From Naegleria gruberi (lineage: Eukaryota): 64,000 nucleotides of DNA. The notes beneath the pieces are model-generated. The model was not told the DNA's origin. It did no database searches and was given only the letters and a program-made list of their open reading frames with translations. Below, piece after piece: positions 25-24,559 of this stretch; within the stretch, counting starts at the first letter, position 1; each line of letters opens with the position of its first letter. The stretch lies in assembly GCA_000004985.1 (NCBI GenBank), contig GG738876.1. The stretch is one strand, 5' to 3'. The translations under genes were made by a program, and so were the position numbers.

Positions 25-909
25 ATGACTTTGATGAATGAACATACAAAGGCTGACATGTTAGAAAAAATCGCTCACAAACTTGTTGATATTGAAATGA
101 GAAAGAATGATTCTGAAATTTTGAGTGTTAAAGCTTTATACGGACAATTATTGGCTTTCAAATCTACTAAGGATTCTTTGAAGATTTTTGAATTGTTGGA
201 ATTGAAGCACGGAAGAGATGTTAAATATCATTTTAACAGAATTGTTGAAGGTTCATTCTATGAAAAGTTGAAGAGTAATCTTAAATACATTCCTGATGAA
301 GATGCTACCATTGTTGCTATTTACTTTGGAAAGCAAGTTGAAAAGGAAGAAGATGGTCAACAAGTTATGGCTGAAAAGAATGAAACTATCACCTTTGAAG
401 TTAACAAGTCAACAGGAAAGTTGGAACAAATCAAGAAGAACGAACACACTAGGAATTATTACACTTTGAACTATGTTACTCCAATAACCAAGGGACGAAC
501 AGAATTGAACGATTTCAAGATTACCATTGCTAGTTATGTTCCAAATGAAGTTGAACAAGACGAAAAGAAGGCAGAAATTGATTCATTCTTGAGTGGATGT
601 ATTAATACTTGGGATAACCAAAATAATACTCTCAATACTGAATTGTTGAAGAACCCACCAAGCCCTTACAGATTCAAGGGAACTATTGTCAAGTTCAAGA
701 AACACTACCACTCTGAAGATGGTGCTATCAAGGTTACTCTCCACGAAATTCACGATCTTGATACTAAGGCTATCAACTATGAAGTTGTTGTTGTCAGTGA
801 AGAACTTTACAGATACTTGGATGACAAGGAACTGAAGCCAGCTGACAAGAAGAAGAAGTATAAGGAAAGTCTCGAAAAGTTGACTGACTGGTTGTTCACA
901 AACCAATAA
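25..909 (+). CDS. hypothetical Lys/Glu-rich protein, 294 aa, apparently single exon
   Basis: Complete ATG(25)..TAA ORF preceded by a CA/A-rich leader. No recognisable family motif. Coding-like codon usage. Confidence 0.4.
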   Translation: MTLMNEHTKADMLEKIAHKLVDIEMRKNDSEILSVKALYGQLLAFKSTKDSLKIFELLELKHGRDVKYHFNRIVEGSFYEKLKSNLKYIPDEDATIVAIYFGKQVEKEEDGQQVMAEKNETITFEVNKSTGKLEQIKKNEHTRNYYTLNYVTPITKGRTELNDFKITIASYVPNEVEQDEKKAEIDSFLSGCINTWDNQNNTLNTELLKNPPSPYRFKGTIVKFKKHYHSEDGAIKVTLHEIHDLDTKAINYEVVVVSEELYRYLDDKELKPADKKKKYKESLEKLTDWLFTNQ

Positions 910-1038
910 ATTTACACAACTGCTTGAGTGTTTAATTTATTATCATTTCAATTATCCATTTTTTGTTATCCTATTTCAATTCAGTTTTCAAGTGTGGAGA
1001 ACTTGTGTTCATAGTACTCTGAACTTTAAATCAAAAAA

Positions 1039-1320
1039 ATGACTAACAAGTATAGCCTGCATAGTGACATGAAGATCTTTAGAACTCGTTTATTATTTGT
1101 TGGATGGGTGTTTGTCTTTCTATTCCCACCTGCTGTTCCTTGTCTATTGATGTATTATGAGAAGAGAAAGGTTGAGGCTGAGCACACTGAGACTGGAATT
1201 GGATGTTGTACGAATTATTATTTTGTTTGTGGAATGGTGGATGTTTGTACCATACTGTTGACAATACTAGGTTGGCTTCCTGGTTCAATATTCACAGCAG
1301 TACTATTATCTGGAATATAA
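1039..1320 (+). CDS. Pmp3/UPF0057 (YqaE/Rci2) family small membrane proteolipid with an unusually long inter-helix loop
   Basis: FLFPPAVPCL...ILLTILGWLPGSIFTAVLL matches the two-helix signature of the family (FLPPxxVFL...ILLTILGYIPGIIHA). A 93-aa ORF with about 25 extra loop residues containing a CC pair. Confidence 0.5.
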   Translation: MTNKYSLHSDMKIFRTRLLFVGWVFVFLFPPAVPCLLMYYEKRKVEAEHTETGIGCCTNYYFVCGMVDVCTILLTILGWLPGSIFTAVLLSGI

Positions 1321-1553
1321 TCATCTCCAACACAAAATTATACACTCACCCTATGAAAATAATTTGAAGAAAGAATAACAATTTTGAAGAGAATATTTAG
1401 AAAAGAAAATATTGCCATGGAGAACAATTCATAGCAATCATGAAAAAGTACCTTCCGATACCATTTGATCAAGTAATTAATTTGATAATAATAAATATCA
1501 TACGGCAATGATAATTTTAAAAATGATCAAGTATTGGAGATGAACTTAAAAAA

Positions 1554-2867
1554 ATGGAAAAGCAAGAAGAAATAGAAATTACAAACAATAACTTTGATTC
1601 GGAGGAGAGAATGGATCAACGAATGGATCAAGGGAAGGAAGGAATGGCTGATCATTATGGTTCTAGTGAAGATGAAGATACATTGTCTGATCAGTTGGTT
1701 GTTGAAGATGAAGAAGAATATGCTTATTATGATTGGGAAACGGTTGGATCTTCCTTACAAAATCAAGAAGAGGAACTAATTGATTTGTGGATGAGAATTA
1801 ATGATGCCTTTTCCGATAGGAAGAAATCCCTTGTCAACAAGTTTCAAGGAATTTCTAATAATTTGAAAAGAGAATTGGAAAATCAAAAGTTACAACTCAA
1901 ACAAAAGAAGGAAACATTAGTAAGGGAAATGAATCAGCCAGAGAATGTCAAGACCAAGGACAAGTATGCATTTACAATTGGTGTTTTGATTATGGTTTCT
2001 TCAACTTTCCTCTTGGCAAAATATCCCTACCTATTACCAGATTATTACATTGTAATGAGTGTAATTCTGATGGTGATTAGATTCTTTCACTATCATGGAA
2101 TGGGATTCCACTACTTTATGTTAGATTTTTGCTATTTGGCCAACTTTATCTTGATCTTTTATTTGGGATTTTATACAAACAGTCCTCACCTGTTTTTACT
2201 GAACTTTGTAAACAGCAGTGGACCTCTTGCAATTGCCATTGTAATGTGGAGAAATTCATTGGTATTTCATTCGATTGAAAAGGTAACTTCAGTCTTTATA
2301 CACATCTTCCCAGCCATTGTAACATTTGCGTTGAGGTGGTTAATGTTTAATGACAACACTCAAACACCAAAAATTATAACACCAATTGGGGAGAGCTACT
2401 CTATTTGTGTCAATGAAGATTGTTATGTATCATTGGTTGACATTTACGTACCTCACATTTGCTTATTCATATTTTGGCAATTAAGCTATACAATCAAGAC
2501 ACATTTCCTTGACAGAGAATATCTACAAAAACAAAATAATATTCAAACCAGCTACAATTACCTTATCAAGTCTAAAGCGTTCATTCAAACATTGAGTGAC
2601 AAGTTGTATGGAAAGGAACATAGACTTTTAGGATTCATTTCTTTACAATTTTTATTTCATATGTGTACTTTGATTCCTATAAAATTTATGTTTGACCATT
2701 TTTGGGTTCATGTGGCTGTGTTGACAAGTGTATTCTTGGTTTCTGTTTGGAATGGAGCCAACTTTTACTTTGAGAGATTTGCAAAGGTTTATCTTCATGA
2801 CTTGAGAAAGATGGCAGAAAAATTGGAGATGGAAAACAAAGAACAAACTTCAGCAATCACTCAATGA
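1554..2867 (+). CDS. polytopic membrane protein, DUF2838/Gpc1 (glycerophosphocholine acyltransferase)-like
   Basis: 437-aa ORF from ATG 1554. Acidic N-terminus, then about 8 hydrophobic helices, with an HYHGMGFHYFMLDFCY motif that I recall as typical of DUF2838. Assignment is from memory of the family signature. Confidence 0.4.
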   Translation: MEKQEEIEITNNNFDSEERMDQRMDQGKEGMADHYGSSEDEDTLSDQLVVEDEEEYAYYDWETVGSSLQNQEEELIDLWMRINDAFSDRKKSLVNKFQGISNNLKRELENQKLQLKQKKETLVREMNQPENVKTKDKYAFTIGVLIMVSSTFLLAKYPYLLPDYYIVMSVILMVIRFFHYHGMGFHYFMLDFCYLANFILIFYLGFYTNSPHLFLLNFVNSSGPLAIAIVMWRNSLVFHSIEKVTSVFIHIFPAIVTFALRWLMFNDNTQTPKIITPIGESYSICVNEDCYVSLVDIYVPHICLFIFWQLSYTIKTHFLDREYLQKQNNIQTSYNYLIKSKAFIQTLSDKLYGKEHRLLGFISLQFLFHMCTLIPIKFMFDHFWVHVAVLTSVFLVSVWNGANFYFERFAKVYLHDLRKMAEKLEMENKEQTSAITQ

Positions 2868-4332: not shown

Positions 4333-5310
4333 ATGAAAACAAGTTTAATTATTGCAGCAATTGCAATTCTACTCTTCATTGCAGTTGTACAAGCAACTGA
4401 CAGCTATGCTCCAAAGCCTGACAGTTATGCTCCAAAGCCAGACAGTTACAAGCCACCTGTTAAGAGAGTGTGCAAGAAGAAATGTGTTGCTCACAAGTAT
4501 GTCAATGGAAAGTGTTTGAAACATAAGATTGTTGGTCAAAAGAAGGTCTGTGATAAGTATGCTATTGTTGGTGCTGGAAAATGCTTGAAATACAAAAAGT
4601 TCTCCAAGTGTGACAAGTACAGTAAGCCAATTAAGAAGTGTGTTAAGCATGCATACAAGAAGACTACTTGTGCTAAGAAGAAGTACTGGAAGGTTTGCGA
4701 TTCTTATGGAAGTAAGAAGGTCTGTGCTAAGAAGGCAAGCAAGAAGTATTGTGCCAAGTATGAAAATGTCACCAAGTGTGTCAAACATGCTACCAAGAAG
4801 GTCTGTAAGAAATTCAAGAAGGTTCCAATTAAGAAGTGTGAAAAGAAGAAGGTCTGTGACAAGTACACCACTGATTCATATGCTCCAGCCAAGTGCAAAT
4901 ATGTTAAGAAGTGTAAGGTTGTCTCCTATGCTAAGAAGTGTTGTCAATATAAGAAGATTAAGTATTGTAAGCAAAAGAAGACTTTCAAGAAGTGTTGTCA
5001 ATATAAGACTAAGCATTATTGTGCCAAGCATAAGACTATCAAATTCTGTAAGCACAAGAAGACTTTGAGCAAGTGTATCAAGTACAATAAGAAGAAGTAC
5101 TGTTGTCAATATAAGACCATTCCTTCCAAGTGTATCCATAAGAAGCATTGGAAGAAGTGTGTTAAAAAGTCAAAGGGAAAGAGAATTTGTAAGAAGCACA
5201 AGTTGACTGGTGGAAAGAAGGTCTGTAAGAAGTATGCTCAAAAGAAGGTCTGTGCTAAGAGAAAGAAGGTCTGTAAGAAGGTTGACTCTTATTTTGGTAA
5301 GAAGTGGTAA
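4333..5310 (+). CDS. secreted, highly basic Lys/Cys-rich repetitive protein (signal peptide, 3x DSYAPKP, then many KKVC/CVKH/KKC repeats)
   Basis: N-terminal MKTSLIIAAIAILLFIAVVQA looks like a signal peptide. About 325 aa with roughly 50 Cys and 90 Lys. The DNA shows imperfect tandem repeats (gacagctatgctccaaagcct x3; aagaaggtctgtg recurring). Confidence 0.6.
   Translation: MKTSLIIAAIAILLFIAVVQATDSYAPKPDSYAPKPDSYKPPVKRVCKKKCVAHKYVNGKCLKHKIVGQKKVCDKYAIVGAGKCLKYKKFSKCDKYSKPIKKCVKHAYKKTTCAKKKYWKVCDSYGSKKVCAKKASKKYCAKYENVTKCVKHATKKVCKKFKKVPIKKCEKKKVCDKYTTDSYAPAKCKYVKKCKVVSYAKKCCQYKKIKYCKQKKTFKKCCQYKTKHYCAKHKTIKFCKHKKTLSKCIKYNKKKYCCQYKTIPSKCIHKKHWKKCVKKSKGKRICKKHKLTGGKKVCKKYAQKKVCAKRKKVCKKVDSYFGKKW
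4390..5290 (+). repeat. imperfect tandem coding repeats (Lys/Cys-rich units) inside the 4333..5310 gene
   Basis: Recurring aagaagtgtgt/aagaaggtctgt nucleotide motifs. They generate spurious overlapping ORFs on both strands in the track. Confidence 0.6.
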
Positions 5311-5417: not shown

Positions 5418-5913
5418 CTAATCAATAATTGATTGTAAACTTTGTAAATGAGCCTCAATTCGAGAAGATTTCTTTTTCATATCTTCAATTTCCTTATTAA
5501 ATTGTTCAGTGAGAGGTTCCACTAGCATCATTTGTGATTTTTCAAATCGGAGTCGTATTGTTTTTTTCTCATTCTCTAGTGAACTAATTACTTTTTGAAT
5601 GGTGGCATGATTTTTTTTGGATTTGATGATTTCCTCTTGTTTTAATTCGAATAGTTCGAGAAGGTTCATTTTGGCGACTGTGTAATTCTCTGCTCGAATG
5701 ATCGTGAATGATTTTAAGTGGTACTTTCACAATAATTACAATTAATTTCGAATAACCTTCCAGCAGATTCCTCCAAAATATTTCGGAATTAATTAATTGA
5801 TCGTGAGTTGATTTGTCGATAGAGAGAATACTTCCAAGATGTTTCACGGAGAGGAATGTAAATATTTCTATTAGAATTTCTGTTGGTAAAGAGATTGACA
5901 TTTTTTTAAACAT
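5418..5913 (-). CDS. F-box-like protein with C-terminal coiled coil. Two exons, with a short intron around 5700-5750.
   Basis: The N-terminal LPTEILIEIFTFLSVKHLGSILSIDKSTHD is an F-box motif. The downstream ORF 5418..5669 is coiled-coil-like and in another frame. The best donor/acceptor pair found is gtaatt...gcagag (about 51 nt). Exact junction is uncertain. Confidence 0.4.
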
Positions 5914-6076: not shown

Positions 6077-8014
6077 TTAAAGCTCCTTTTTAATGAAAAC
6101 TGAATGATAGGAACGAAATGGATTTCTAATATCTTGATTTCTTCTATAAGAAGATGATGAGGATGTTTGTTGTGATATCTGATCTACATCTTCACTATAG
6201 TCCACTTCAAATCCATATAATTTTTCACCATCTTGATATTTGAGAGAGCTAATGAGATTGGACCACTCTTCTCTAGATCTATATTCTGCATAGTATTCAG
6301 TGCAAAAATTTGGCATTTCTCTAGGAGAAGACCAAACCATAGAGTACAGTCCGTGCATAATGTCCAACACGAGTGAAATCTCTGTGGGTGTGCAATCGTG
6401 TTCTCTAATAATGAATACACCACCAGGTTCTAAAACTCTGTGAATTTCCTTGATGGTCTCCTCTACATTCTTAATGTGATGAAGAGACATAAGGGCTACC
6501 ACAAGAGAAAACGAATTAGACTCATAGGGAAGCTTATTATTATCCTCACTGATGAGTGTAAAGGTAAATCCTGTTGTGTAACTCTTTCCAATATCTCTGA
6601 CATCGCAGCCGTGAATGTTTTCCTTACTTAATCCCAATTCAGTACCAACTACAGCAGTAATGGATCCTTCTGAACATCCAATGTCTAACATGTTTCTTAT
6701 TTTTGCATTGCTTGGAAGAATTTCCTTAATCTTACTCGATCTATTGTTTGCTCTATATGACGTATCAACAGATGAATCAGATGTCATTTTGGTTAAATTC
6801 ACAGGATTTTCTTGAAGATATTCACGTGATTTGAATATTTCGTTCTGAAACAAGTTGTAAAGTTGATCATAAATTTCCTGATCCTTCTCGTATTGTTCTA
6901 TAATTTTTCCAATCTTGTTTTGTACAATTTCTTGTTGCTTGAAACATTTCCTGAGCATTTGTTTTGAAAGAATTTGAATAAATCTCTTCTTGATATCTCC
7001 AGCAGAATTGAACCAAACATAACTGAATTGTTTTTGGGAGAGTACAGTTGGAAGACCATTCTTATCCAAATCCGTTTCCTTATCTGTATCTGATTCGAGA
7101 ATTGGCAATATAGCTACCATTGTATGGCCATCTTGAATGTTTCTATTTTCAATGATTTTTCTCGTTTTGCATTTTCCCTCTATTTGTTTCACCAGAGCTT
7201 CTGATTCTTCGTCTCTACCTCTGAAAATAAGTAAGGGACATTCTAAATCTTCCAAAATCTCTCTACTCATTTCACAAAGTGAATTAGTTTTGTCCTCAGC
7301 AGATTCGAATAATTTTGTCTTTGAAAAGAGGTCAATGTCAACATATATTATAGATTTGAAATATTCTACTTTTGAGTAGGATTCCCTCATCCAATCCATG
7401 AAATCCTGATTTACACAATTTACCAAATCATTAAATTTGAAGGATTTCAAATTATCTTTCAAACATTCAAATATTTCTCTATTATTTTCTACAGCCACAA
7501 TATTATCAAAGGATCCACTCTTTCTAATTAATAATAAACTTGTAGCTCCAACTCCAGCAAAACCATCTATAAGAGTATTCTTACTTCTACTCTTCTTTGA
7601 ATAGCTGAGTAATGGACAATTTTCATCTCTTACATCCAAAATCCAATTCATCATTAAAAGTTGTGATTCTTCTGGAACGAAACTCTTATAATCCAAACCA
7701 GCCAACTTGGCTAATTTATAATCACGGAATGGAAAGGCATCCTCCAAGTCTCTACATTTACTTGCTCCAATTTTATTCCTCTTATTGTAACTTCCTCTAT
7801 CATTGTGATGAGAAGATGATGAAGAAGAGTAATTCTGTTTCTTTCCATCATGATTATATTCATCTTTATTGTATTTTCCATAATCATCATAATTTCTCTT
7901 CTTATTGTAGGAACCATATGATGATGTCGAGTAATTATTCTTGTTATTACTTCGTCCCGAGGAATTATTGTATGAAGAATTGGATGATGAATTGTGATGA
8001 TAATTTCTTCTCAT
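6077..8014 (-). CDS. two-domain SAM-dependent methyltransferase. An N-terminal SY/N-rich low-complexity region is followed by an RsmD/TGS1-like N-methyltransferase fold and a C-terminal Methyltransf_11-type domain.
   Basis: LIDGFAGVGATSLLLIRKSG...VAVENN is a DxFxGxG motif of the m2G/TGS1 type. The C-terminal NMLDIGCSEGSITAVVG ... GCDVRD ... LEPGGVFIIREHD supplies motifs I, post-I and III of class I methyltransferases. 645-aa single ORF from ATG 8014. Confidence 0.6.
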   Translation of the reverse strand: MRRNYHHNSSSNSSYNNSSGRSNNKNNYSTSSYGSYNKKRNYDDYGKYNKDEYNHDGKKQNYSSSSSSHHNDRGSYNKRNKIGASKCRDLEDAFPFRDYKLAKLAGLDYKSFVPEESQLLMMNWILDVRDENCPLLSYSKKSRSKNTLIDGFAGVGATSLLLIRKSGSFDNIVAVENNREIFECLKDNLKSFKFNDLVNCVNQDFMDWMRESYSKVEYFKSIIYVDIDLFSKTKLFESAEDKTNSLCEMSREILEDLECPLLIFRGRDEESEALVKQIEGKCKTRKIIENRNIQDGHTMVAILPILESDTDKETDLDKNGLPTVLSQKQFSYVWFNSAGDIKKRFIQILSKQMLRKCFKQQEIVQNKIGKIIEQYEKDQEIYDQLYNLFQNEIFKSREYLQENPVNLTKMTSDSSVDTSYRANNRSSKIKEILPSNAKIRNMLDIGCSEGSITAVVGTELGLSKENIHGCDVRDIGKSYTTGFTFTLISEDNNKLPYESNSFSLVVALMSLHHIKNVEETIKEIHRVLEPGGVFIIREHDCTPTEISLVLDIMHGLYSMVWSSPREMPNFCTEYYAEYRSREEWSNLISSLKYQDGEKLYGFEVDYSEDVDQISQQTSSSSSYRRNQDIRNPFRSYHSVFIKKEL

Positions 8015-9754: not shown

Positions 9755-10053
9755 TTTCAAAGATTTGGTGTGGGACTTTTTTTTTTGGTTTGAGATTTTT
9801 CAAAAATCGTTTTTCTAGAATGCTTCCAATTTGTTTTGACTGAATTTTGATGAGCCAAGCAAAGCGCGTAAAATAGTATTGTAACACAACAAAATTGTTC
9901 CATTGCACAATGAGAAGATATTGAGGGTAACCATCTAAAAGATAGGTTAGGACCTAGATATATGGTATAAGGCAGGTTGACTTGTATTGAAAATAAATAT
10001 TATTTAAATATTTACAATTTAATAAAATTTAAATTAAATATTCCTTTAAAAAA

Positions 10054-11635
10054 ATGAATCAAGATGAAACTCTAGAAAATTCATCACCATCATCATCCGC
10101 TCTACCCAATTCAACTTCCGATATTAATCCTTCAGCTCCTATTATTAACAATGGTAATAAGAGTTTCTTTGCATTTGAAAAGAGTCCCATCGACATTGAT
10201 AGAGTAAAATTAATTCCAACCCAACATGTTCTCCAATCTCAAGTTTATGAAGCCATTTCCATGATGAATGATAAGAATGATTTAAATAATAACAATAATA
10301 ATAAGGAAATATTATCATCATCATTAATGTTGAAGAATTTTCCATTGTTAGAATGTATTCCACGTGTTCCGATGACAACTTCCTCTCATCAGATGGTCTA
10401 CGTTCCGAATATGAGAAGTATTTTAGTATGGGGAGGAGCAAAGGTTGAAATTAGACCTTTGGATTATAATTTATTGAGTGGAAGATATGTTAATGATGAG
10501 AATAGTGAGAAGGAGATTGGATTGAATCATTGGATTGATTCGGATGGATTGAAGATTGATGTTTCTGAAGTGAATGATAATGTCTTGTCGAGTTATTTGG
10601 ATACTTCATTCTCATGTTTGGATTTGAAGAGTGAGAAATGGGAAACTAGGATACATTGCTCTTTTAAAGAGTTTGAATCATCTATTCAAATGGAAAGTGG
10701 AAAATGATGAAAATGTGGAGACTATTTTCAATTGTTCACCAACTTCTTCAAAGACAAGTCATTCATGTATTTACAATGATAAGGATAATTTAATTTATAT
10801 TTTGGGAGGTGTTTCACATGATGTGGAACAAACATTGAAAATATTTACTTTTTCATTACAAAATAGACAGTGGACTTGTTATAATTTCAAAGATACACTC
10901 AATCCTAATATCCCTTCTCCACATTTGAAAGGTCAAGTTGCCACCTATAGACCACAAACAAACACTATCCATGTCTATGGAGGTCAATATATAGATGACT
11001 ATGAATTAATATCAAACGATTGTATTTATGTTTACAATTGCACCACTAGTAAATGGGAAAATAGGTTGGTACCAGACTTACCTATTCTAGGTCGTTCCTT
11101 TTCCACCTGTGCATATTGCAAGAAGGCAGATTCCATGTTTGTATTTGGTGGTGTTCTAAATGTTATTGGAGAATTGACCAATGAATTGTGTCAGTACAGT
11201 TTTTCAGAAAACCAATGGACTGTCTACAAATACGCCTCCTCTAAGCCAATTAAACCAGTTTATGGACATTGTATGTGCTTAATTGACGATCGTTACATGT
11301 TCATTTATGGAGGTTGTGAACAAGCATTGACACCAATTCCTTCCTCTCAGTGTATTGTTTTTGACATTCTTGCTCAGAGATGGTACGATTTGAGTGAAGT
11401 TTTACAATTATTCAATTCAGTAGAAAATCCAGCTCAGATGCCACCTCTCAATTCTTCATCAATAATTTTCGATGAAAATAGTAGAAGAATTATCATTTAC
11501 GGAGGAAATGAAATTGAAAATGGAAACAAGACTTCCAATACCAGATTTTTATTCTTACTCAAAGATGGAAATAACAATTTAGAAAATATGATTGGAAAAC
11601 CAAAACTTTCAGATGTTCTAGTGGAGACCTTATAA
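10054..11635 (+). CDS. Kelch-repeat (beta-propeller) protein. The gene spans two track ORFs joined by a short intron or a frameshift near 10630-10760.
   Basis: Repeated ...(I/L)YxxGG... and W-containing blades (ILVWGG, LIYILGG, IHVYGG, MFVFGG, MFIYGG, IIIYGG). The 5' ORF (10054..10707) and the 3' ORF (10631..11635) overlap in different frames. The best candidate intron is 10671..10758 (gtttga...acaag, 88 nt). Confidence 0.6.
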
Positions 11636-11712
11636 AATGTCTATTTTCTATGTGAAATTCTTGATACTTCCAGTATCCACTCGAACTTCGTTCTCATACA
11701 CAAACCAAAAAA

Positions 11713-12213
11713 ATGCCAAAACCTGCACCGAGCAGAACTAAATTAACAACATCAATCGTATCCCATCCCTATGCAAAAAAGAAGGAAGAAATTAATCAAA
11801 TCAATTCAAAAATTCAAAAACTCACCACTTTTCAGAAAAGAGTGTATGTTGCATTAACTAGAATTCCTTCGGGTCGGGTTACAACTTATGCCGGGTTGGC
11901 CAATTACTTGGATTGTAAATCGTCACAAGCAGTTGGTCAGGCATTGAAGAGAAATCCATTTGCTCCTGAAATTCCTTGTCATCGTGTTATAAAATCCAAT
12001 ACGTTTCATATTGGAGGATTTATGGGGAAAACCGAGGGAGATGAAATTGTAAAAAAGACAAGGTTATTGAAAGAGGAAGGAGTTGAATTTGATTCTAGTG
12101 GTGTGTTGATTGATAGAAAATTGATTCATTCCTTTGCAGATGATTCTGAATTGGAGAAGGATGACAAGGAGCTTGATTCACTTCTTTGTGATTTGTTAAA
12201 TTTCAAAAAATAA
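11713..12213 (+). CDS. MGMT: O6-methylguanine-DNA methyltransferase (suicide alkyltransferase), active-site Cys present
   Basis: TTFQKRVYVALTRIPSGRVTTYAGLANYL...NPFAPEIPCHRVI contains the PCHRV active-site motif and the helix-turn-helix DNA-binding region. 166 aa, single exon. Confidence 0.8.
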   Translation: MPKPAPSRTKLTTSIVSHPYAKKKEEINQINSKIQKLTTFQKRVYVALTRIPSGRVTTYAGLANYLDCKSSQAVGQALKRNPFAPEIPCHRVIKSNTFHIGGFMGKTEGDEIVKKTRLLKEEGVEFDSSGVLIDRKLIHSFADDSELEKDDKELDSLLCDLLNFKK

Positions 12214-12250
12214 TATTGTAAATAGATTCCAATATTTGTAAATAATTACA

Positions 12251-13326
12251 TTATTTCATTTCCATCTTTTCTTCATACTTTTTATATTCTATAATTTCGT
12301 AGAGCTCGCTTCTAGTTTGCATTGTAGAAAGTACAGGTTCAACAGTTCCATTCTTGGAAATTGATTCGTACACATTCTTTGCAGCTTTAGCCATAGCTCT
12401 AAATGCACTCAATGGGTGGAGAACCATTGAAACACCAACACTAGCCAATTCTTCTCCAGTAAACAGAGGTGTTTTACCTAAAATTTAGATATTGAAATAT
12501 TGAAATTCAAATCTTTGAAATATTCGAAATAATACTTACCAAATTCTGTAATATTGGCCAAAATTGGAACATTTACTTGCTCTACAAAGGCTTTATACTC
12601 TTCCAGAGTTGTGCATGCTTCAGGGAACAACATATCTGCACCAGCATTCACATACTGTTTTGCTCTTTCAATTGCCTTTTCCAATCCTTCAACTGCCAAC
12701 GCATCAGTTCTAGCAATAATGACAAAATCCGAATCCACCCTAGCTTCACAAGCTGCCTTAATTTTCTCCACCATTTCCTCCGTACTAACTATTTGCTTAT
12801 TAGGTAAATGTCCACAACGTTTCACACTTTGAATTTGATCCTCAATATGAATAGCTGCTACTCCAACTCGTTCCATCTCTCTTACACACCTCATCACATT
12901 CAAAACTCCTCCAAATCCTTTTTCAAAATTAATATTTATTTCCATTCAATATAAATATAATATTAAATATAATATAATAAATATAATAATTAAAATATCA
13001 ATTCCATAAAAACACATACCAGTATCCACATCCACAAGTAATGGCAAATTAGTACATGATGTAATTCTCCTTGCATCCTCCAAAACATCACTCAAATTAG
13101 TCATTCCCATGTCTGGTAATCCAAAACTAGCTGTGGCCACACCACTTCCACTCAAATAAATTGCCTGATGACCACATTCTTCTGCTAACAAGGCTGTAAA
13201 TGCATTGATGGTTCCGACAATGTGGAGTGGTTGTTTATTGTTTTGGTTTTGGTTTTGGAGGGAAAGTTTGAATTTCTTCCCTGGAGAGAGTTTGGTAGAG
13301 GGTGATTGGCAAATTGTGTTGAGCAT
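12251..13326 (-). CDS. isocitrate lyase/PEP mutase superfamily enzyme (2-methylisocitrate lyase / carboxyvinyl-carboxyphosphonate phosphorylmutase-like), 3 exons
   Basis: Exons are about 13020..13326, 12540..12917 and 12251..12477 (minus strand). Splicing restores the DVDTG|FGG (DxDTGFG) and ITEFG|KTPLFT family motifs. Donors are gtatgt and gtaagt, acceptors aaaaag and ttttag; introns are 102 and 62 nt. The N-terminus SPGKKF...[11 protein letters not shown] aligns with PrpB-type proteins. Confidence 0.8.
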
Positions 13327-13854: not shown

Positions 13855-15183
13855 ATGAATCATCTTAAACGATTGATTGTTTTGGCTCTTGTAGTTGTAC
13901 TCATGTTTGTCGTCTCACTTTCACATGCTCAAGACGAACAACAGGAAAACAACAATAAGAGACCACCAAGACCTTTACCTTCAGGTAGACCACCAAGACC
14001 ACATCCAGATCATTCTGGAGGGCGACCACCTCGCCCATTCCCATCTGGAGGAAGACCACCACGTCCAGATCATTCAGGAAGAAGACCAAGACCAGATCAT
14101 TCTGGTGAGAGACCACATCCACCAGGTCCACAACCAGATCATTCAGGAAGAAGACCACCAAGACCTGGTCCACATCCTGGTCAATCAGGATTACCACCAC
14201 GTTCTGATGAACAAGATGGTCAAAGTGAAAATAGACCTCGTCCACCAAGACCTCATCCAGAACGTTCAGGTGAAAGACCACATCCAAGACCTTTCCCATC
14301 TGGAGGTAGACCACCAAGACCAGACCACTCAGGAAGAAGACCAGGTCCACATCCAGATCATTCTGGAAGACCACCTCGTCCACATCCAAGACCAGAACCA
14401 TCTTCTGAAGATGACGAACACTCTGATAGACTTGAACAAGGAAACAGACCTCGTCCACCAAGACCAGATCGTTCAGGTTTGCCACCTCGTCCATTCCCAT
14501 CTGGAGGAAGACCACCAAGACCAGATCATTCAGGAAGAAGACCACATCCAAGACCTGAACACTCTGGTGAGAGACCACATCCAAGACCAGCTCACTCTGG
14601 TGAAAGACCACCAAGACCAGATCATTCAGGAAGAAGACCAAGACCAGGTCCACAACCAGACCAATCGGGAAGACCACCTCGTCCTTATCCAGAACATTCT
14701 GGTGAAAGACCAGGCCCACGTCCTCAACCACAAGAATCAACTTCATCCTTAATAGGTGAAAGACCACCAAGACCTGATAGATCTGGAAGACCACCTCGTC
14801 CATTCCCATCTGGAGGCAGACCACCAAGACCAGGCCCATCTGGAGGAAGACCAGGTCCTGGACCAGGTCCACAACCTGATGTTTCATCTGTTGAAGATCC
14901 ACTCATTGATGCTCAAAATAATACCAAGAATGAAATTCCAAATGGACCATCCAATGGTTCTGATGCTTTGGCCATTGTCTTTGGTGTTATTGGTGCAATT
15001 GTTGTCATGGCTGCTATTGCTCTTGTCATTGGAAGTGGAATTGCTGTTTTTGTTTTGAAGAAGAAGGGTTATTCACTCTCATTGAAGAAACATCAAATGT
15101 TGAGAGATGAAGACGAATTTGAATATCCACAACAAGACCAAACTCCAATTTACTCTGTCAATCAACCAGTTGCTCAAAATTAG
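13855..15183 (+). CDS. type I membrane protein with a Pro/Arg-rich tandem-repeat ectodomain (GRPPRPDHSGRRP-type units)
   Basis: Signal peptide MNHLKRLIVLALVVVLMFVVSLSHA, then more than 20 imperfect repeats of RPPRPxPxHSG(E/R)RP. Near the C-terminus is a TM (LAIVFGVIGAIVVMAAIALVIGSGIAVFVL) followed by KKKGY and a roughly 40-aa tail. Confidence 0.6.
   Translation: MNHLKRLIVLALVVVLMFVVSLSHAQDEQQENNNKRPPRPLPSGRPPRPHPDHSGGRPPRPFPSGGRPPRPDHSGRRPRPDHSGERPHPPGPQPDHSGRRPPRPGPHPGQSGLPPRSDEQDGQSENRPRPPRPHPERSGERPHPRPFPSGGRPPRPDHSGRRPGPHPDHSGRPPRPHPRPEPSSEDDEHSDRLEQGNRPRPPRPDRSGLPPRPFPSGGRPPRPDHSGRRPHPRPEHSGERPHPRPAHSGERPPRPDHSGRRPRPGPQPDQSGRPPRPYPEHSGERPGPRPQPQESTSSLIGERPPRPDRSGRPPRPFPSGGRPPRPGPSGGRPGPGPGPQPDVSSVEDPLIDAQNNTKNEIPNGPSNGSDALAIVFGVIGAIVVMAAIALVIGSGIAVFVLKKKGYSLSLKKHQMLRDEDEFEYPQQDQTPIYSVNQPVAQN
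13960..14880 (+). repeat. about 39-nt imperfect tandem coding repeats (Pro/Arg-rich) within the 13855..15183 gene
   Basis: Recurring ggaagaccaccaagaccagatcattcaggaagaagacca units. They produce the artefactual track ORFs 13895..14752(+) and 13901..14902(-). Confidence 0.6.
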
Positions 15184-20207: not shown

Positions 20208-20235
20208 CTCGATTCAAAAAATACAATTAAATTAT

Positions 20236-22694
20236 TTATTTCAAATTCTCCAATTCATCGAGTGGGATATCCTCCTCATAAATATCTCGATTTCTCTTCT
20301 TTCCAGTTTCTTCGATTTCCAATGAAAAATCAGCATCAAGAGCAGCATTAGGTGAAGTCAATTGAGCAATTTCATCCTCATCATTTTGTTTTGGAATTGT
20401 CTTAATCTCGAGTAATTTGGTCTTTGGAGCTGCTTGTTGCTTCTTAGGTTTGTGGGTTCTATTATTGAGCTTTGTTTCAACAATCGAAAGCTTGTTTGCA
20501 GTTTCATTCATATGAGAAACAACTCCATTCTTCAAATTTTGTAAATCAGTAACACTAACATTTCTACCAAACGTTTCCTCGCAAGATTTTAACAATGCCT
20601 CTTCTGCTTCCAGACCAGAAGAAGCATTTGTTGATAAAATATTTCCAAATGAGCAAATATATGATTCTAAAACATCTGTCAGCACATTGAGGGCACCTGC
20701 TTTAGCTCCTTCAAATCCTTCATGACATAAAATCATTGATGTAATGCAACTGAGAGCAGAATGTGCATTCTCTTTGGAAAGATTTTGCTCTAACATTTCA
20801 TCTGGGCTCGAACTACTAGCTGAACCTTCAGAGCTTGCACTTACTGCTTTAAGGGGAATGAGAAGGTTCTTTTTCTTTTCTCTTAATTGAATAATCTTAT
20901 CTACATTTTGTTTAACTAGAGTATTGCTTGGCGAATAAATAAATGTGTCATCTTCATTGGAAATGGATGAGATTTGTTTCTTTCCTGGTGGTGGTGGACT
21001 TGTTGGCTCTCTACTCATTTGCAATGTTTGCAATAAATTATTACTTCCACTATTGCAAGAATTTTTGAGAATAGTTTGGGCCAAGTTCTGAAGTTTTGGT
21101 TCCTGTTGAGCTTTGTGAGATTGGCTATATATTTTCTTAATGGTTGACACATCTCGTAATCCCAATTTATATCCTAGATTGGAAATTATACTTAATTGTT
21201 GTTTTGCAAAATCTTTTGAGTTGTTTCGTGTTGCTATCGATGTTAAATGTGAATTTGAGAGACTTTCACCATAATCTGGCAATGTCTCATCATATGTATA
21301 TTCTGGGAAAATACATCTACTATTACTACTTAGGTTTTCAAAATAGAATGAGCTTAGAGAGTTCTCGTGGATACATTTTTGAGTTGATTTTTCTCCTCTT
21401 AGTTTCTTTTTAAATTATTGTTAAAATTCAAATAAGCTATATTCAAACTTACTAATTTTGGAAGTCTAACTTGTGCTGTTGATAAATTCCATCTTTCTTC
21501 CCTGTCGAAAATATCTACATTTTTAATTTCTTTTTGATTCTCTTGTTGAATTTTTTCCTTCAAATCTAAATAAATATCCAAATCCTTTGATGGAAGTATT
21601 TCTACAGTATTTACCTTTTGAGCCATCTCTGTATCAATTATATTCCAAGAATCTGGATCTGAATCCTTATCCTGTAAAGTGCTGAGTTTTATCTTTTTTC
21701 TTGGCTTTGATGTTGATGGCACAGTTGGTGTTTGTTCAGATTCAGAATCAGACATTGGTAATACCATAGAGCTGGCATCTTGCATTTTGGAGAGAGCATC
21801 CAATTTTTCCTCGTCATAGATAGCATTTATAGATGTTGTAGGATTATATAAATTAGAAATGATCATTTGATCAATTTGATTATACTTGTAGAGATCCACA
21901 ATATTTGTATTTTCATCATTTTGCAAATGCATATTTTCTAATAAATCCCTATCTTTTTCCAATGTGTGAAATTCACTCATTTGGAAATATGGCAATAAAG
22001 AAATGTCATCATCGTACAATACATGATTTGTTACAAATGAATCGTATAAAATTGATCTCAATCTCAAAGATAATTCCATAATTAAATTATGTGACACTTC
22101 TCCAGAGGCTTGATTATTGTTCCAGAAATTACCAAATGTATCCTTATTCACAGTAACTTGTTGATACAATTTATACAATTTATCATTGCTAGCTTGTTGA
22201 AAAATGTTGGAAATCTTCTTTTTAGGAGATCGATCCAATTCTTGAACAAGTGAAAACCACTGATCAGATGATGATGTTTGTAGCATACAAGGAGAACAAC
22301 AAGAAGACGAAGTAGGTGAATAATCAGATGGTGATACAACAGCTCTCCTTCCTCCAACAACAATACCTCCCGACGATGATAACAGTGGTGTATTATTATT
22401 ACCAGGCTTTCTCTTTCTTCGTGTATTTGGTGTTTTCAATTGTGTATTATTATTATTACTAATGCTGCTACTACCACAACTCGTTGAAGATGGTGGAGTA
22501 TTATTTCCACCTCCTTGTTGTTGTTGCAATGTTGTAGTACCATGAATACCACTTGTATTGACCGTCAGTTGATGCTGTTGCTGTTGTTGCTGAAGTAAAG
22601 AAGAAGCTTCGCCAACTTCTTTGCCCGTTATTATTGTTGGTGTTGCTTCATGTAAATGGTTGGGCATTTTTTGGAAATGATAGGTTGGCGCCAA
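20236..22694 (-). CDS. Gln/Asn/Ser-rich hypothetical protein, probably 2 exons (track ORFs 21399..22694 and 20236..21282), with an acidic C-terminus
   Basis: The upstream ORF ends next to a gtaagt donor (aaattaGTAAGT, around 21410 on the minus strand). The downstream ORF's frame is open for about 90 nt upstream of its TTG, consistent with a short intron. The joined product has a poly-Q/N N-terminus. The exact junction is unresolved. Confidence 0.35.
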
Positions 22695-24499: not shown

Positions 24500-24559
24500 A
24501 AAGAAATTGTAAAGTAAACGAATTTAACACGAACTTCGAGATCAAAAAACAAGAAAAAA

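What the first reader, a model, noticed from the sequence alone, without database searches (positions are those of the whole stretch)
4333..5310. Secreted, extremely basic Lys/Cys-rich repeat protein
After a signal peptide and three DSYAPKP units, about 280 aa consist almost entirely of K, C, V, Y and H in short repeated motifs (KKVC, CVKH, KKCC, YCAK). Roughly one residue in six is Cys and one in three is Lys. Such a composition suggests a metal-binding, nucleic-acid-binding or polyanion-binding extracellular protein, or an antimicrobial or cell-wall component. I do not recognise a described family.
Basis: seen in the sequence. Interest (0 to 1): 0.5.

Follow-up and report, generated by a model that had tools for sequence, protein, structure and literature searches.

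The report
Secreted lysine-rich disulfide-ladder hairpin protein
This is a real gene of a Naegleria amoeba for a secreted, extremely positively charged protein; it belongs to a small, undescribed family found only in Naegleria and its relatives, and it is predicted to fold into one very long two-stranded ribbon pinned by about 15 disulfide rungs, most likely a building block of an extracellular coat such as the cyst wall.

Summary
The ORF at 4333..5310 (+) is real: 325 aa, a signal peptide, 32.6% Lys and a calculated pI of 10. It is 10% overall and 12% in the repeat region, not one residue in six.

The window comes from a Naegleria species that the protein databases hold no exact match for. 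Relatives occur only in N. gruberi (at least 6 paralogues), N. fowleri, N. lovaniensis, Willaertia and a few metagenome contigs. That is 23 hits among 1.84 billion representative proteins, every named one labelled hypothetical. There is no Pfam match, no PDB sequence match and no mention in the literature searched.

Two AlphaFold models, equal Cys counts in the two halves, and Cys spacings that mirror each other about a central DSYAP loop (P about 1e-4, with matched indels in paralogues) all point to one giant beta-hairpin with about 15 cross-arm disulfides. No solved structure resembles it.

Lys codons are 90% AAG against 50% in neighbouring genes, and A-runs are avoided, which argues for translation. 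The DNA repeats are degenerate, so this is not an assembly artefact.

Function is inferred only. My best guess is a cross-linked polycationic strut of the cyst wall or extracellular matrix. An antimicrobial role is a weaker rival, and a metallothionein-like role is rejected.

The parts
4333..5310 (+). Complete single-exon coding sequence: 325 codons plus a TAA stop. It encodes a secreted Lys/Cys/Tyr-rich protein.
   Evidence: ORF list and sequence. Full-length alignment to Naegleria homologues. AAG makes up 95 of 106 Lys codons, against 50% in 36 other ORFs of the window. The longest A-run is 5.
4333..4395 (+). Signal peptide, residues 1-21 (MKTSLIIAAIAILLFIAVVQA). The likely cleavage site is VQA|TD.
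   Evidence: The sequence shows an n-region (MK), a 16-residue hydrophobic core, and small residues at -3 and -1. AlphaFold models residues 4-18 as a helix. All full-length homologues start the same way. No signal-peptide predictor was available.
4399..4461 (+). N-terminal tail, residues 23-43, predicted disordered: DSYAPKP, DSYAPKP, DSYKPP, VKR.
   Evidence: TRF finds a 21-nt unit x 2.4 copies with 93% matches at 4399-4448. pLDDT is below 50 for residues 19-42. D-x-Y motifs lie at the same place in homologues.
4462..4857 (+). N-arm of the predicted hairpin, residues 44-175, carrying 15 Cys at about 9-residue intervals.
   Evidence: AlphaFold strands E44-61 through E100-175. Cys spacing. Cys columns conserved across the family.
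4858..4893 (+). Central loop and hairpin tip, residues 176-187 (DKYTTDSYAPAK), carrying another DSYAP motif.
   Evidence: The only non-strand stretch between E100-175 and E188-263. It lies at the midpoint between the first and last Cys: 180.5 against 181.5. The homologous loop is central in every full-length family member.
4894..5283 (+). C-arm of the predicted hairpin, residues 188-317: 18 Cys at 15 sites, three of them CC doublets.
   Evidence: AlphaFold strands E188-263 through E301-317 mirror those of the N-arm, with i+j about 361-363. Counted outward from the loop, Cys spacings in the C-arm mirror those in the N-arm: r=0.86, P=1e-4.
4939..4944 (+). CC doublet 1 (Cys203-Cys204). One of the two has no partner site in the N-arm.
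   Evidence: The homologous position is a single Cys in N. gruberi NAEGRDRAFT_67458.
4993..4998 (+). CC doublet 2 (Cys221-Cys222).
5101..5106 (+). CC doublet 3 (Cys257-Cys258).
4933..5121 (+). The most regular part of the array at DNA level: degenerate periodicity of 27, 54 and 81 nt (the CCQYK..C..C modules).
   Evidence: TRF periods 27, 54 and 81 with 64-77% matches. Repeat family D1 at 61-74% identity.
5284..5307 (+). C-terminal tail, residues 318-325 (DSYFGKKW), carrying the last D-S-Y motif. In the model it emerges next to the N-terminal tail.
   Evidence: pLDDT is below 50 for residues 321-325. D-x-Y motif positions. N. fowleri has four tandem IDSYKP-type units at this position.

Best explanation
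The gene encodes a secreted structural protein of a family restricted to Naegleria and its relatives.

Proposed mechanism:
1. The signal peptide is removed.
2. Residues 44-175 and 188-317 zip together antiparallel into one very long two-stranded beta-ribbon, about 130 residues per arm, or roughly 40 nm if fully extended.
3. About every ninth residue, a Cys of one arm meets a Cys of the other, giving around 15 disulfide rungs. The likely pairs are 175-188, 169-194, 158-203/204, 149-212, 140-221/222, 131-230, 122-239, 113-248, 103-257/258, 93-267, 84-276, 73-286, 61-298, 51-307 and 47-314.
4. About 100 Lys side chains cover the rod (net charge about +98).
5. Both tips carry D-S-Y-(A)-P motifs: the two tails at one end and the central loop at the other.
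6. Three extra Cys, in the CC doublets, have no partner within the molecule.

My proposal is that the rod is exported to build an extracellular coat, most probably the cyst wall. There it would bind anionic or polysaccharide wall material by charge. It would become insoluble through intermolecular disulfides from the spare Cys and through oxidative Tyr or Lys cross-links at the tips.

What is shown: the ORF, its composition, the 9-residue Cys period, the narrow family, the conserved Cys framework, the mirror symmetry of the Cys pattern, and the codon bias.

What is predicted: the hairpin fold and the disulfide pairing (about 0.65-0.7 on its own).

What is inferred only: the location in a wall or matrix and the cross-linking chemistry (about 0.35-0.4 for the cyst wall specifically). 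The confidence given is for the whole statement.
For: Gene and family
- The ORF is intact and the N-terminus has the features of a signal peptide.
- There are 23 relatives among 1.84e9 representative proteins. They come from N. gruberi (at least 6), N. fowleri, N. lovaniensis, Willaertia magna and metagenome contigs. Cys columns are invariant across them.

Periodicity
- Cys coincidences at lags 9, 18 and 27 number 36, against 9.8 +/- 2.8 in shuffles.

Hairpin
- The AlphaFold model of the window protein has pLDDT 77.7, reaching 85-92 over most of residues 85-280. Every strand break in one arm is mirrored in the other, about the loop at 176-187.
- A second model, of the 377-aa paralogue NAEGRDRAFT_64508, gives the same architecture around its own loop at 198-202. 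Its breaks at 128-135 and 267-274 are also mirrored.
- Independently of AlphaFold, Cys counts are equal in the two arms: 15/15, 16/16 (two proteins) and 18/18 (three proteins). The window protein has 15/18, the three extra being CC doublets.
- The central loop lies within 6 residues of the midpoint between first and last Cys in proteins of 301-475 aa.
- Spacings counted outward from the loop mirror each other. For the window protein they are N [6,11,9,9,9,9,9,10,10,9,11,12,10,4] and C [6,9,9,9,9,9,9,9,10,9,10,12,9,7], r=0.86, P=1e-4.
- In the N. fowleri and N. gruberi 64980 proteins, a 17-residue gap in one arm faces an 18-residue gap at the same rung of the other arm, r=0.94, P<1e-4.
- Tandem duplication produces direct symmetry, not mirror symmetry, so duplication alone does not explain this pattern.

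Charge
- All family members are basic: net +61 to +98 in Naegleria.

Translation and likely high expression
- AAG makes up 90% of Lys codons, against 50% in 36 neighbouring ORFs (binomial P = 4e-18).
- No A-run exceeds 5. Simulations with 50:50 Lys codon use never give a longest run below 6.

Structural role (from established knowledge, not tested here)
- Lys, Tyr and Cys-rich secreted repeat proteins with Pro-containing Tyr motifs are typical of cross-linked extracellular materials: extensins and proline-rich wall proteins, mussel foot proteins, and oocyst, spore-coat and eggshell proteins.
- All named organisms that carry the family form walled cysts.
Against: - There are no expression, proteomic or localisation data for any family member. 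Ten literature searches, including searches by locus tag, found nothing.
- The fold rests on AlphaFold runs with shallow alignments of 15-16 sequences. pTM was 0.22-0.23, and the five models ranged from pLDDT 51-78 and 38-68. I could not inspect the coordinates.
- Strand boundaries suggest a register of i+j about 363 in the middle of the model, while the Cys pairs sum to 361. The Cys may therefore sit diagonally rather than directly opposite.
- A 9-residue (odd) period would place successive rungs alternately at H-bonded and non-H-bonded positions. In solved structures, cross-strand disulfides strongly prefer non-H-bonded positions (from my own knowledge). The real ribbon would need bulges or a different local geometry.
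- The mirror-symmetry test with a fixed register was only marginal for the window protein itself (P=0.06).
- Family members are homologous, so their mirror patterns are not independent observations.
- The matching 12-residue modules near the two ends are also direct sequence repeats of each other (D7).
- No positional orthologue was found in N. fowleri next to the conserved neighbouring gene.
- Nothing ties the protein to cysts rather than to the trophozoite surface, to adhesion or to phagosomes.
Confidence: 0.4

Rival explanations
1. Antimicrobial or prey-killing polycation. The protein would be a giant version of the cationic, disulfide-pinned beta-hairpin peptides (protegrin, tachyplesin, theta-defensin). 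It would be delivered to phagosomes or the medium to bind and permeabilise the anionic envelopes of the bacteria Naegleria feeds on, possibly after being cut into smaller hairpins.
For: - It has a signal peptide, a net charge of +98 and a predicted two-stranded hairpin with cross-strand Cys.
- The family has expanded into paralogues and diverges quickly (37-50% identity between paralogues). No conserved synteny was found on the side of the gene that was examined in N. fowleri. This pattern is common for defence and offence genes.
- The only, non-significant, structural echoes are the long hairpins of pore-forming toxins.
Against: - At 35 kDa, the mature protein is more than ten times the size of known hairpin antimicrobial peptides.
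- Hydrophobic residues are few and are not separated onto one face. The odd 9-residue period places equivalent residues alternately on both faces, so there is no amphipathic surface.
- There are no obvious dibasic processing sites distinct from the general Lys background.
- The strict equality of arm lengths and Cys numbers across paralogues of 301-475 aa points to selection for an intact long rod rather than for releasable short peptides.
Confidence: 0.15
2. Adhesive or cement, or a surface-coat protein of the trophozoite or flagellate. A Lys- and Tyr-rich secreted protein would glue the cell or cyst to wet, negatively charged mineral or organic surfaces, as mussel foot proteins do. It would not be a load-bearing wall component.
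For: - Lys is 33% and Tyr 8%, with frequent K-Y neighbours.
- D-S-Y-A-P-K-P units resemble the Lys/Pro/Tyr decapeptides of mussel foot protein 1, and the Cys/Lys/Tyr-rich, basic composition resembles mussel foot protein 6 (composition; the resemblance is from my own knowledge).
- It has a signal peptide and no membrane anchor.
Against: - There are only 2.4 tandem copies of the heptad, against dozens in mussel proteins.
- Most of the protein is the Cys ladder, which mussel foot protein 1 lacks.
- No evidence for DOPA formation can be obtained from sequence.
- This reading overlaps largely with the best explanation, since both are extracellular material roles.
Confidence: 0.15
3. Metal-binding (metallothionein-like) or other small-ligand-binding protein, in which the thiols stay reduced and chelate Zn, Cu or Cd.
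For: It has 33 Cys, 10 His and three CC doublets.
Against: - The signal peptide sends the protein through the oxidising secretory pathway.
- Cys are isolated and spaced about 9 residues apart. There is no CxC or CxxC cluster, and only a single CxxxC.
- Cys numbers and positions are matched between the two arms, as expected for disulfide partners.
- It has 8% Tyr and 35 kDa of Lys-rich sequence, unlike metallothioneins.
- No metallothionein model in Pfam matches any of the 16 family members, even at E<=1.
Confidence: 0.03
4. Not a functional protein: a chance ORF in low-complexity AAG-rich DNA, or an assembly artefact of a collapsed repeat.
For: - The composition is low-complexity.
- Long spurious ORFs lie on the opposite strand.
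- The exact protein is not on record in the large protein collection searched.
Against: - P(no stop) is about 2e-11.
- Full-length homologues with conserved Cys columns and signal peptides occur in four named species.
- The codon bias is specific to the + frame.
- The DNA repeats are 60-77% identical, so they are too degenerate to collapse in assembly.
Confidence: 0.02

Closest known systems
Uncharacterised Naegleria/Willaertia proteins: NAEGRDRAFT_67458, NAEGRDRAFT_76199 (C-terminal part), NAEGRDRAFT_64508, NAEGRDRAFT_48501, NAEGRDRAFT_64980 and NAEGRDRAFT_66117; N. fowleri FDP41_004030; N. lovaniensis C9374_009239; W. magna ABK040_005866
   Same: These are true homologues (E from 1e-21 to 1e-103). 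They share the signal peptide, the Cys framework, the central D-x-Y loop, the equal-armed layout and the strong positive charge.
   Different: - None has a name, a Pfam family or a publication.
- The window protein is the most Lys-rich of those compared (33% Lys, net +98).
- It has three CC doublets.
- It is only 45-50% identical to its best full-length annotated relative. It is 70-73% identical to a partial protein from a sequencing read set (source 'SRC') and 72% identical to the C-terminal part of NAEGRDRAFT_76199.
Cystine-ladder cationic beta-hairpin peptides (theta-defensins, protegrins, tachyplesins)
   Same: Two antiparallel strands joined by parallel cross-strand disulfides, with high positive charge. 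Here this is predicted, not shown.
   Different: - Those peptides have 16-20 residues, 2-3 rungs spaced 2-4 residues apart, and an amphipathic surface.
- This protein has about 270 residues in the hairpin and about 15 rungs spaced 9 apart, and it is not amphipathic.
- There is no sequence relationship. The comparison is from my own knowledge.
Cys-periodic wall proteins of other protist resting stages (Cryptosporidium oocyst wall proteins, Dictyostelium spore coat proteins, Entamoeba Jacob lectins)
   Same: Secreted proteins with many regularly spaced Cys, thought to be insolubilised by disulfides in a resistant wall. This is an analogy of role.
   Different: - There is no sequence or profile similarity.
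- Those proteins are built of globular Cys-knot-like domains or lectin domains and are not polycationic.
- A wall location for the Naegleria family is unproven.
Lys/Tyr/Pro-rich cross-linked extracellular proteins (plant extensins and proline-rich proteins; mussel foot proteins 1 and 6)
   Same: - A basic, Lys- and Tyr-rich composition.
- Short Pro-containing Tyr motifs (DSYAPKP, DSYKPP).
- An expected role for oxidative Tyr or Lys cross-links.
- Mussel foot protein 6 is also Cys-rich.
   Different: - Only 2.4 tandem motif copies plus isolated copies at the tips.
- The bulk of the protein is a Cys ladder.
- Hydroxyproline, DOPA and dityrosine cannot be tested from sequence.
Disulfide-braced beta-helix antifreeze protein of Tenebrio molitor (12-residue Cys repeats)
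   Same: A short, regular Cys-containing repeat that forms a rigid, all-beta, disulfide-braced rod.
   Different: - That protein is a solenoid with both Cys of a pair inside the same coil (spacing 6).
- Here the period is 9, both AlphaFold models give a hairpin rather than a solenoid, and the mirror symmetry of the Cys spacings argues for long-range pairing between the arms.

Membership tests
Naegleria/Willaertia Lys-Cys ladder family (unnamed; NAEGRDRAFT_67458-like) | Significant full-length sequence similarity to the family | tested here: met
   E = 4e-64 over 88% of the length to NAEGRDRAFT_67458, and 2.6e-36 over 98% to NAEGRDRAFT_64508. The profile search recovers only this family.
Naegleria/Willaertia Lys-Cys ladder family (unnamed; NAEGRDRAFT_67458-like) | N-terminal signal peptide, conserved Cys columns, central D-x-Y loop midway between the first and last Cys, and equal numbers of Cys sites in the two halves | tested here: met
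   Alignments A1 and A2. Loop midpoint 181.5 against Cys midpoint 180.5. 15 Cys sites per arm.
Metallothioneins | Small cytosolic protein with Cys in CxC, CxxC or CC clusters, few or no aromatic residues, and thiols that stay reduced and bind metal | tested here: not met
   - The protein has a signal peptide and is 325 aa long.
- Cys are spaced about 9 apart, with no CxC or CxxC.
- Tyr is 7.7%.
- No Pfam metallothionein hit in 16 members at E<=1.
- Metal content is not testable here.
Cationic cystine-ladder beta-hairpin antimicrobial peptides | Antiparallel hairpin pinned by cross-strand disulfides | tested here: inconclusive
   The hairpin is predicted by two AlphaFold models and supported by mirror-symmetric Cys spacing. 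Disulfide connectivity has not been determined.
Cationic cystine-ladder beta-hairpin antimicrobial peptides | Short mature peptide (about 16-30 aa) with an amphipathic surface and membrane-disrupting activity | tested here: not met
   The mature protein is about 304 aa. The odd 9-residue period puts equivalent residues on both faces. Activity is not testable here.
Known Cys-rich repeat domains in Pfam (EGF, granulin, keratin-associated, oocyst wall and similar) | Match to the family profile at or near its gathering score | tested here: not met
   hmmscan of the window protein and of all 16 aligned members at E<=1 gave only chance hits to a signal-peptide-like DUF and to viral capsid models. 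A PDB profile search gave 0 hits at E<=1.
Beta-solenoid, disulfide-braced repeat proteins (Tenebrio antifreeze type) | Each repeat forms one coil, disulfides join Cys within a coil, and the fold matches solved solenoids | tested here: not met
Extensin, proline-rich protein and mussel-foot-protein type cross-linked structural proteins | Long tandem arrays of Pro/Tyr/Lys motifs | tested here: not met
   There are only 2.4 tandem copies of the 7-aa unit, plus single D-S-Y copies at residues 123, 181 and 318.
Extensin, proline-rich protein and mussel-foot-protein type cross-linked structural proteins | Post-translational hydroxyproline, DOPA or (iso)dityrosine, and insolubilisation in an extracellular material | not testable with these tools
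   This requires protein chemistry on native material.
Protist cyst, oocyst or spore wall proteins (a functional class) | Induced during encystation and physically present in purified walls | not testable with these tools
   No expression or proteomic data for any family member were found in ten literature searches or in the one cyst/trophozoite RNA-seq paper checked.

The most novel reading that the evidence does not exclude
The family represents a protein architecture with no solved precedent: a single two-stranded beta-ribbon about 130 residues long per arm (tens of nanometres), with no hydrophobic core, held together by a ladder of about 15 regularly spaced disulfides and coated with about 100 lysines. 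Naegleria and its relatives would use it as a rigid polycationic strut, cross-linked at its Tyr-bearing tips, to build the chemically resistant cyst wall. This would give the first molecular handle on the wall of the cysts of the brain-eating amoeba's genus.
Probability: 0.3. Interest if true: 0.7.

Novelty: new variant of a known kind. Interest (0 to 1): 0.5.

Why it matters
In the literature I could search I found no molecular description of Naegleria cyst wall proteins, although cysts are how these amoebae, including the lethal N. fowleri, survive drying, chlorine and drugs. A lineage-specific, apparently highly expressed, secreted protein family built for cross-linking is an obvious candidate wall component. 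That would also make it a candidate marker or target.

For protein science, a core-less beta-hairpin tens of nanometres long, stapled every nine residues, would be a new design principle for rigid, highly charged nanorods. It would also be a useful test case for structure prediction on repeat proteins.

The arm-length and Cys-count matching found here gives a concrete disulfide map that can be tested.

Tried and rejected
- Pfam scans of the protein and of 16 family members found nothing.
- A PDB sequence-profile search gave 0 hits.
- Foldseek against the PDB had no match at E<=0.001. The top, non-significant rows were the long hairpins of lysenin and aerolysin pores.
- The AFDB50 fold library was unavailable.
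- All ten literature searches, including searches by locus tag and accession, found no paper on the family.
- The N. fowleri cyst/trophozoite RNA-seq paper and its supplement do not mention the homologues.
- The 1967 J. Bacteriol. paper on N. gruberi cyst wall chemistry, which I recall only vaguely, is not held. I make no claim from it.
- I looked for paralogues elsewhere in the window and found none.
- I looked for a positional orthologue in N. fowleri:
  - The region upstream of the ABCD transporter is not collinear with the window.
  - No family member lies within 10 kb of the N. fowleri orthologue of the neighbouring methyltransferase.
  - As a result, no closely related DNA was available for a dN/dS test.
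- Exact-sequence look-ups found neither the window protein nor its neighbour on record.
- K-K cross-strand pairs in the proposed register are only slightly depleted: 9 against 12 expected, P = 0.10. This neither supports nor contradicts the hairpin.
- A fixed-register mirror test was marginal for the window protein (P = 0.06) but strong for paralogues. The test based on spacings was clearer.
- I considered and rejected a metallothionein, a beta-solenoid, a chance ORF and an assembly collapse. The reasons are under the rival explanations and the membership tests.
Full report
**1. The observation**

The window is AT-rich (34% GC) and gene-dense. At exactly 4333..5310 on the + strand there is an uninterrupted ORF of 325 codons, from ATG to TAA. 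At this base composition, the chance of 325 stop-free codons is about 2e-11.

The product begins MKTSLIIAAIAILLFIAVVQA|TD. This has a short charged n-region, a 16-residue hydrophobic core, and small residues at -3 and -1. I read it as a classical signal peptide; no predictor was available. There is no later hydrophobic segment and no C-terminal anchor signal.

|---|---|---|
| Lys about one in three | 106/325 = 32.6% | 3 |
| Cys about one in six | 33/325 = 10.2% overall; 12.3% in residues 47-314 | 3, 82 |
| About 280 aa 'almost entirely' K, C, V, Y, H | 67% of residues 44-325 | 82 |
| Three DSYAPKP units | Two exact copies plus DSYKPP | 3, 13 |
| Motifs KKVC, CVKH, KKCC, YCAK | Present 7, 2, 2 and 2 times | 3 |

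Tyr is 7.7% and the calculated pI is 10.0.

Cys recurs about every ninth residue, in roughly 30 modules of the form C-x-K-[Y/H/K]-x-x-x-K-[K/V/Y]-C. Cys-Cys coincidences at lags 9, 18 and 27 number 36, against 9.8 +/- 2.8 (maximum 21) in 2000 shuffles.

**2. A real, translated gene and not an artefact**

At DNA level the repeats are degenerate. Periods of 27, 54 and 81 nt show 64-77% matches. The only near-perfect repeat is the 21-nt x 2.4 DSYAPKP unit. A collapsed or expanded assembly is therefore unlikely.

Lys codons are AAG in 95 of 106 cases. In 36 other long ORFs of the same window the proportion is 50% (binomial P = 4e-18). As a result the ORF has no A-run longer than 5. In 2000 simulations with 50:50 Lys codon use, the longest run was never below 6 and averaged 8.9.

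This is what selection for efficient translation of a Lys-rich message would produce. AAG may be the preferred codon, poly(A) tracks may be avoided, or both. That interpretation is from general knowledge.

The long ORFs on the opposite strand are the expected by-product of AAG-rich coding DNA. They have no homologues.

**3. Organism and family**

The word-indexed search found six relatives. The named ones are all Naegleria gruberi 'predicted proteins'.

An exhaustive profile search of 1.84 billion representative proteins found only 23 hits. The three weakest (P0024, P0028 and P0029) are unrelated proteins with periodic Cys repeats and look spurious.

Cluster look-ups name the following members:
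- N. gruberi NAEGRDRAFT_67458, 76199, 64508, 48501, 64980 and 66117
- N. fowleri FDP41_004030
- N. lovaniensis C9374_009239
- Willaertia magna ABK040_005866

The rest are metagenome fragments. Two of these are divergent and less Lys-rich (13-14% Lys): a 333-aa fragment, and a 713-742-aa protein that carries an extra N-terminal Cys/Pro-rich domain.

No member has a Pfam domain. None matches any PDB sequence, even as a profile at E<=1. None appears in the literature I could search (and eight further searches).

The window itself comes from a Naegleria species whose proteins are not in the collection by exact sequence:
- Its ABCD transporter (18063-20207) is 86% identical to the N. fowleri protein and 100% identical to a protein from an ENA metagenome.
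- The stretch from 18 to 31.5 kb is collinear with N. fowleri contig VFQX01000027.1. Collinearity ends upstream of 18 kb.
- The methyltransferase next to the target (6077-8014, - strand) has a 53%-identical N. fowleri orthologue, but there is no family member within 10 kb of it.
- There is no second copy in the window.

The gene therefore lies in a rearranged neighbourhood, and no close orthologous DNA was available for a dN/dS test.

Conservation is still clear at protein level. Across paralogues of 29-73% identity, the Cys columns and several Lys, Asp and Tyr columns are invariant.

**4. Anatomy: one giant disulfide-laddered hairpin (predicted)**

AlphaFold2 with a 16-sequence family alignment gave mean pLDDT 77.7, reaching 85-92 over most of residues 85-280. 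pTM was low at 0.23, as expected for a very elongated object.

The secondary structure is striking. Apart from the signal helix and disordered tails, the chain is beta throughout. There are two unbroken 76-residue strands, 100-175 and 188-263, on either side of the loop at 176-187. Every break in one half is matched by a break in the other at i+j of about 362-363: 97-99 with 264-266, 80-83 with 280-282, 74-75 with 287-288, 68-69 with 293-294, and 62-63 with 299-300.

A second prediction used the 377-aa paralogue NAEGRDRAFT_64508 (pLDDT 67.9). It gives the same design around that protein's own loop at 198-202, with mirrored interruptions at 128-135 and 267-274.

AlphaFold on shallow alignments of repeats can mislead, so I looked for evidence that does not depend on it.

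(a) *Position of the loop.* In every full-length member (301-475 aa), the homologous central loop lies within 6 residues of the midpoint between the first and last Cys of the mature protein.

(b) *Cys counts in the two halves*:

| Protein(s) | Cys, N-arm / C-arm |
|---|---|
| NAEGRDRAFT_67458 | 15 / 15 |
| NAEGRDRAFT_64980; N. fowleri FDP41_004030 | 16 / 16 |
| NAEGRDRAFT_66117; N. lovaniensis C9374_009239; a JGI metagenome protein | 18 / 18 |
| NAEGRDRAFT_64508; NAEGRDRAFT_48501 | 18 / 16 |
| Window protein | 15 / 18 (the three extra are the second Cys of three CC doublets) |

(c) *Spacings.* Counted outward from the loop, the Cys-to-Cys spacings of the two arms mirror each other.
- For the window protein they are N [6,11,9,9,9,9,9,10,10,9,11,12,10,4] and C [6,9,9,9,9,9,9,9,10,9,10,12,9,7]. 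This gives r = 0.86, and 1 in 10,000 permutations of the C-arm spacings fits as well.
- In the N. fowleri and NAEGRDRAFT_64980 proteins, an unusual 17-residue gap at the second rung of the N-arm faces an 18-residue gap at the second rung of the C-arm (r = 0.94, P < 1e-4). So where one arm grew, the other grew at the mirrored place.

(d) *Fixed-register test.* A search for the best mirror point recovers the homologous loop in most members. It beats a null that permutes spacings and so preserves periodicity in 0 of 1000 trials for four paralogues. For the window protein it is only marginal, at P = 0.06.

Tandem duplication creates direct symmetry, not mirror symmetry. Long-range antiparallel pairing of the two arms is therefore the simplest explanation.

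The implied disulfide map is 175-188, 169-194, 158-203/204, 149-212, 140-221/222, 131-230, 122-239, 113-248, 103-257/258, 93-267, 84-276, 73-286, 61-298, 51-307 and 47-314.

**5. Caveats on the fold**

- I could not read the model coordinates.
- The strand boundaries imply a register of i+j about 363 where the Cys pairs sum to 361. The Cys may therefore be diagonal neighbours in the model.
- With an odd period of 9, successive rungs fall on alternate faces and alternate between H-bonded and non-H-bonded pair positions. In solved structures, cross-strand disulfides strongly prefer non-H-bonded positions (my own knowledge). Bulges or local irregularities would be needed.
- The matching 12-residue modules near the two ends are also direct sequence repeats of each other (D7), so part of the symmetry could come from duplication.
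- The family members are related, so they are not independent trials.
- K-K cross-strand contacts in the proposed register are only weakly depleted: 9 against 12 expected, P = 0.10.

I put the hairpin-ladder architecture at roughly 65-70%.

**6. What the architecture implies**

If the model is right, the mature protein is a rod of about 130 residues per arm, on the order of 40 nm if extended at 3.3 A per residue. It has no hydrophobic core, because both faces are equivalent. It carries about 100 Lys, for a net charge of +98.

Strong positive charge is shared by all family members examined. The net charge is +61 to +98 in the Naegleria proteins, +30 in the divergent 333-aa fragment and +69 in the divergent 742-aa protein.

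The non-ribbon parts are the N-terminal tail (DSYAPKP DSYAPKP DSYKPP), the central loop (TTDSYAPAK) and the C-terminal tail (VDSYFGKKW). In a hairpin these sit at the two tips, and all carry D-S-Y motifs. Homologues keep D-x-Y-x-P motifs at the same places. N. fowleri has four tandem IDSYKP-type units at its C-terminus.

The three CC doublets give three Cys with no partner in the opposite arm. With 33 Cys in total, at least one must be free or bonded to another molecule.

**7. Most likely function (inferred)**

The features are a secretory signal, no anchor, a rigid disulfide-stapled repeat body, unpaired Cys, Tyr- and Pro-containing tips, extreme Lys content, codon usage suggesting abundant synthesis, and restriction to cyst-forming amoeboflagellates of the Naegleria/Willaertia lineage. 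Together these fit a structural protein of an extracellular material. The obvious candidate in these organisms is the cyst wall.

The proposed mechanism has three steps:
1. The protein folds oxidatively in the ER into the ladder and is exported.
2. It binds electrostatically to anionic or polyhydroxyl wall polymers.
3. It is insolubilised by intermolecular disulfides and by oxidative Tyr or Lys chemistry at the tips.

No data place any family member in cysts. I therefore give this specific role about 35-40%, and the broader statement 'secreted structural or material protein' somewhat more.

Rivals:
- A giant analogue of cationic cystine-ladder antimicrobial hairpins: about 15%. It is too large, not amphipathic, and its arm length is under selection.
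- A mussel-like adhesive or surface coat: about 15%. This overlaps with the structural reading.
- A metallothionein-like metal binder: about 3%. It fails on cellular compartment, Cys pattern and aromatic content.
- A non-gene or artefact: about 2%.

**8. Comparison with known systems, and novelty**

By descent, the protein belongs only to the unnamed Naegleria/Willaertia family. It fails the tested defining features of metallothioneins, the Pfam Cys-rich domains, beta-solenoid antifreeze proteins and long-array proline-rich wall proteins.

It works most like two known kinds of protein:
- in fold logic, like the cystine-ladder beta-hairpins, but about 15 times longer and with widely spaced rungs;
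- in presumed role, like the Cys-periodic wall proteins of other protist resting stages and the Lys/Tyr-rich cross-linked extracellular proteins of plants and mussels.

I classify it as a new variant of a known kind, namely secreted, disulfide-braced, cross-linkable repeat proteins. The predicted architecture has no solved precedent, and if confirmed it would deserve to be called new. The sequences of relatives are already public but undescribed.

**9. Verdict**

- Metal binding is unlikely.
- The added value from this stage is the 9-residue rule, the narrow lineage-specific family, and the evidence for a mirror-symmetric disulfide ladder.
- Interest is 0.5. The structural prediction is surprising and testable, and it gives a lead on Naegleria cyst walls. 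However, there is no functional evidence, and the fold rests on prediction plus pattern analysis.

Noticed in passing
window 13855-15183 (+): A 442-aa ORF encodes a signal peptide, many degenerate Pro/Arg-rich repeats (GGRPPRPDHSGRRPRP...) and a C-terminal transmembrane segment followed by a short tail. This is a second unusual repeat protein, here of type I membrane topology. It causes the local GC rise to 41% and has no Pfam match.
   Followed up: partly
N. gruberi protein P0003 (NAEGRDRAFT_76199): The public gene model looks chimeric. An N-terminal SAM plus PB1 protein is fused to the C-terminal arm of a Lys/Cys-ladder family member, which is 72% identical to window residues 189-294. The true N. 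gruberi counterpart of the window gene is therefore probably mis-annotated.
   Followed up: partly
window 18063-31530 versus L005 (N. fowleri VFQX01000027.1): This stretch is collinear with N. fowleri: ABCD transporter 86% identical, then bromodomain, Prp19-like and penicillin-amidase genes. Collinearity stops upstream of about 18 kb. The window protein is 100% identical to an ENA metagenome protein but to no annotated genome, so the source appears to be a Naegleria species not yet represented in protein databases.
   Followed up: partly
window 29033-32017 (+): A large ORF matches the penicillin amidase family at E = 9e-180. It has a strong AAG bias (0.81) and is conserved at the syntenic place in N. 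fowleri. This family is mostly bacterial, so it may be an old horizontal acquisition.
   Followed up: no
L004 (N. lovaniensis PYSW02000038.1) 546-1838 (-) and 10001-12277 (+): The N. lovaniensis family member C9374_009239 lies about 8 kb from an ABCD transporter, C9374_009235, which is 53% identical to the window transporter. This echoes the 13-kb linkage of the two gene types in the window. It could be ancient linkage or coincidence.
   Followed up: no
window 5418-5669 and 5584-5913 (-): Two ORFs overlap in different frames just downstream of the target. The upstream one has an F-box-like match (E = 4e-5). They are probably two exons of one gene separated by a short intron.
   Followed up: no
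window 51078-51150 (-) and 57747-57819 (-): tRNA-Lys (anticodon TTT) and tRNA-Ala (anticodon AGC) genes. The tRNA-Lys found here reads AAA, whereas the target gene uses AAG almost exclusively.
   Followed up: no
L003 4825-7053 (metagenome contig MLSBCLC_10041413), protein P0031: This is a divergent relative of 742 aa. A Cys/Pro-rich N-terminal domain (repeated CP..C motifs) precedes a ladder domain with only 13% Lys. It sits on a eukaryote-like contig among Ras GTPase and SNF transporter genes. The Cys framework therefore extends beyond Naegleria and is older than the extreme Lys content.
   Followed up: partly
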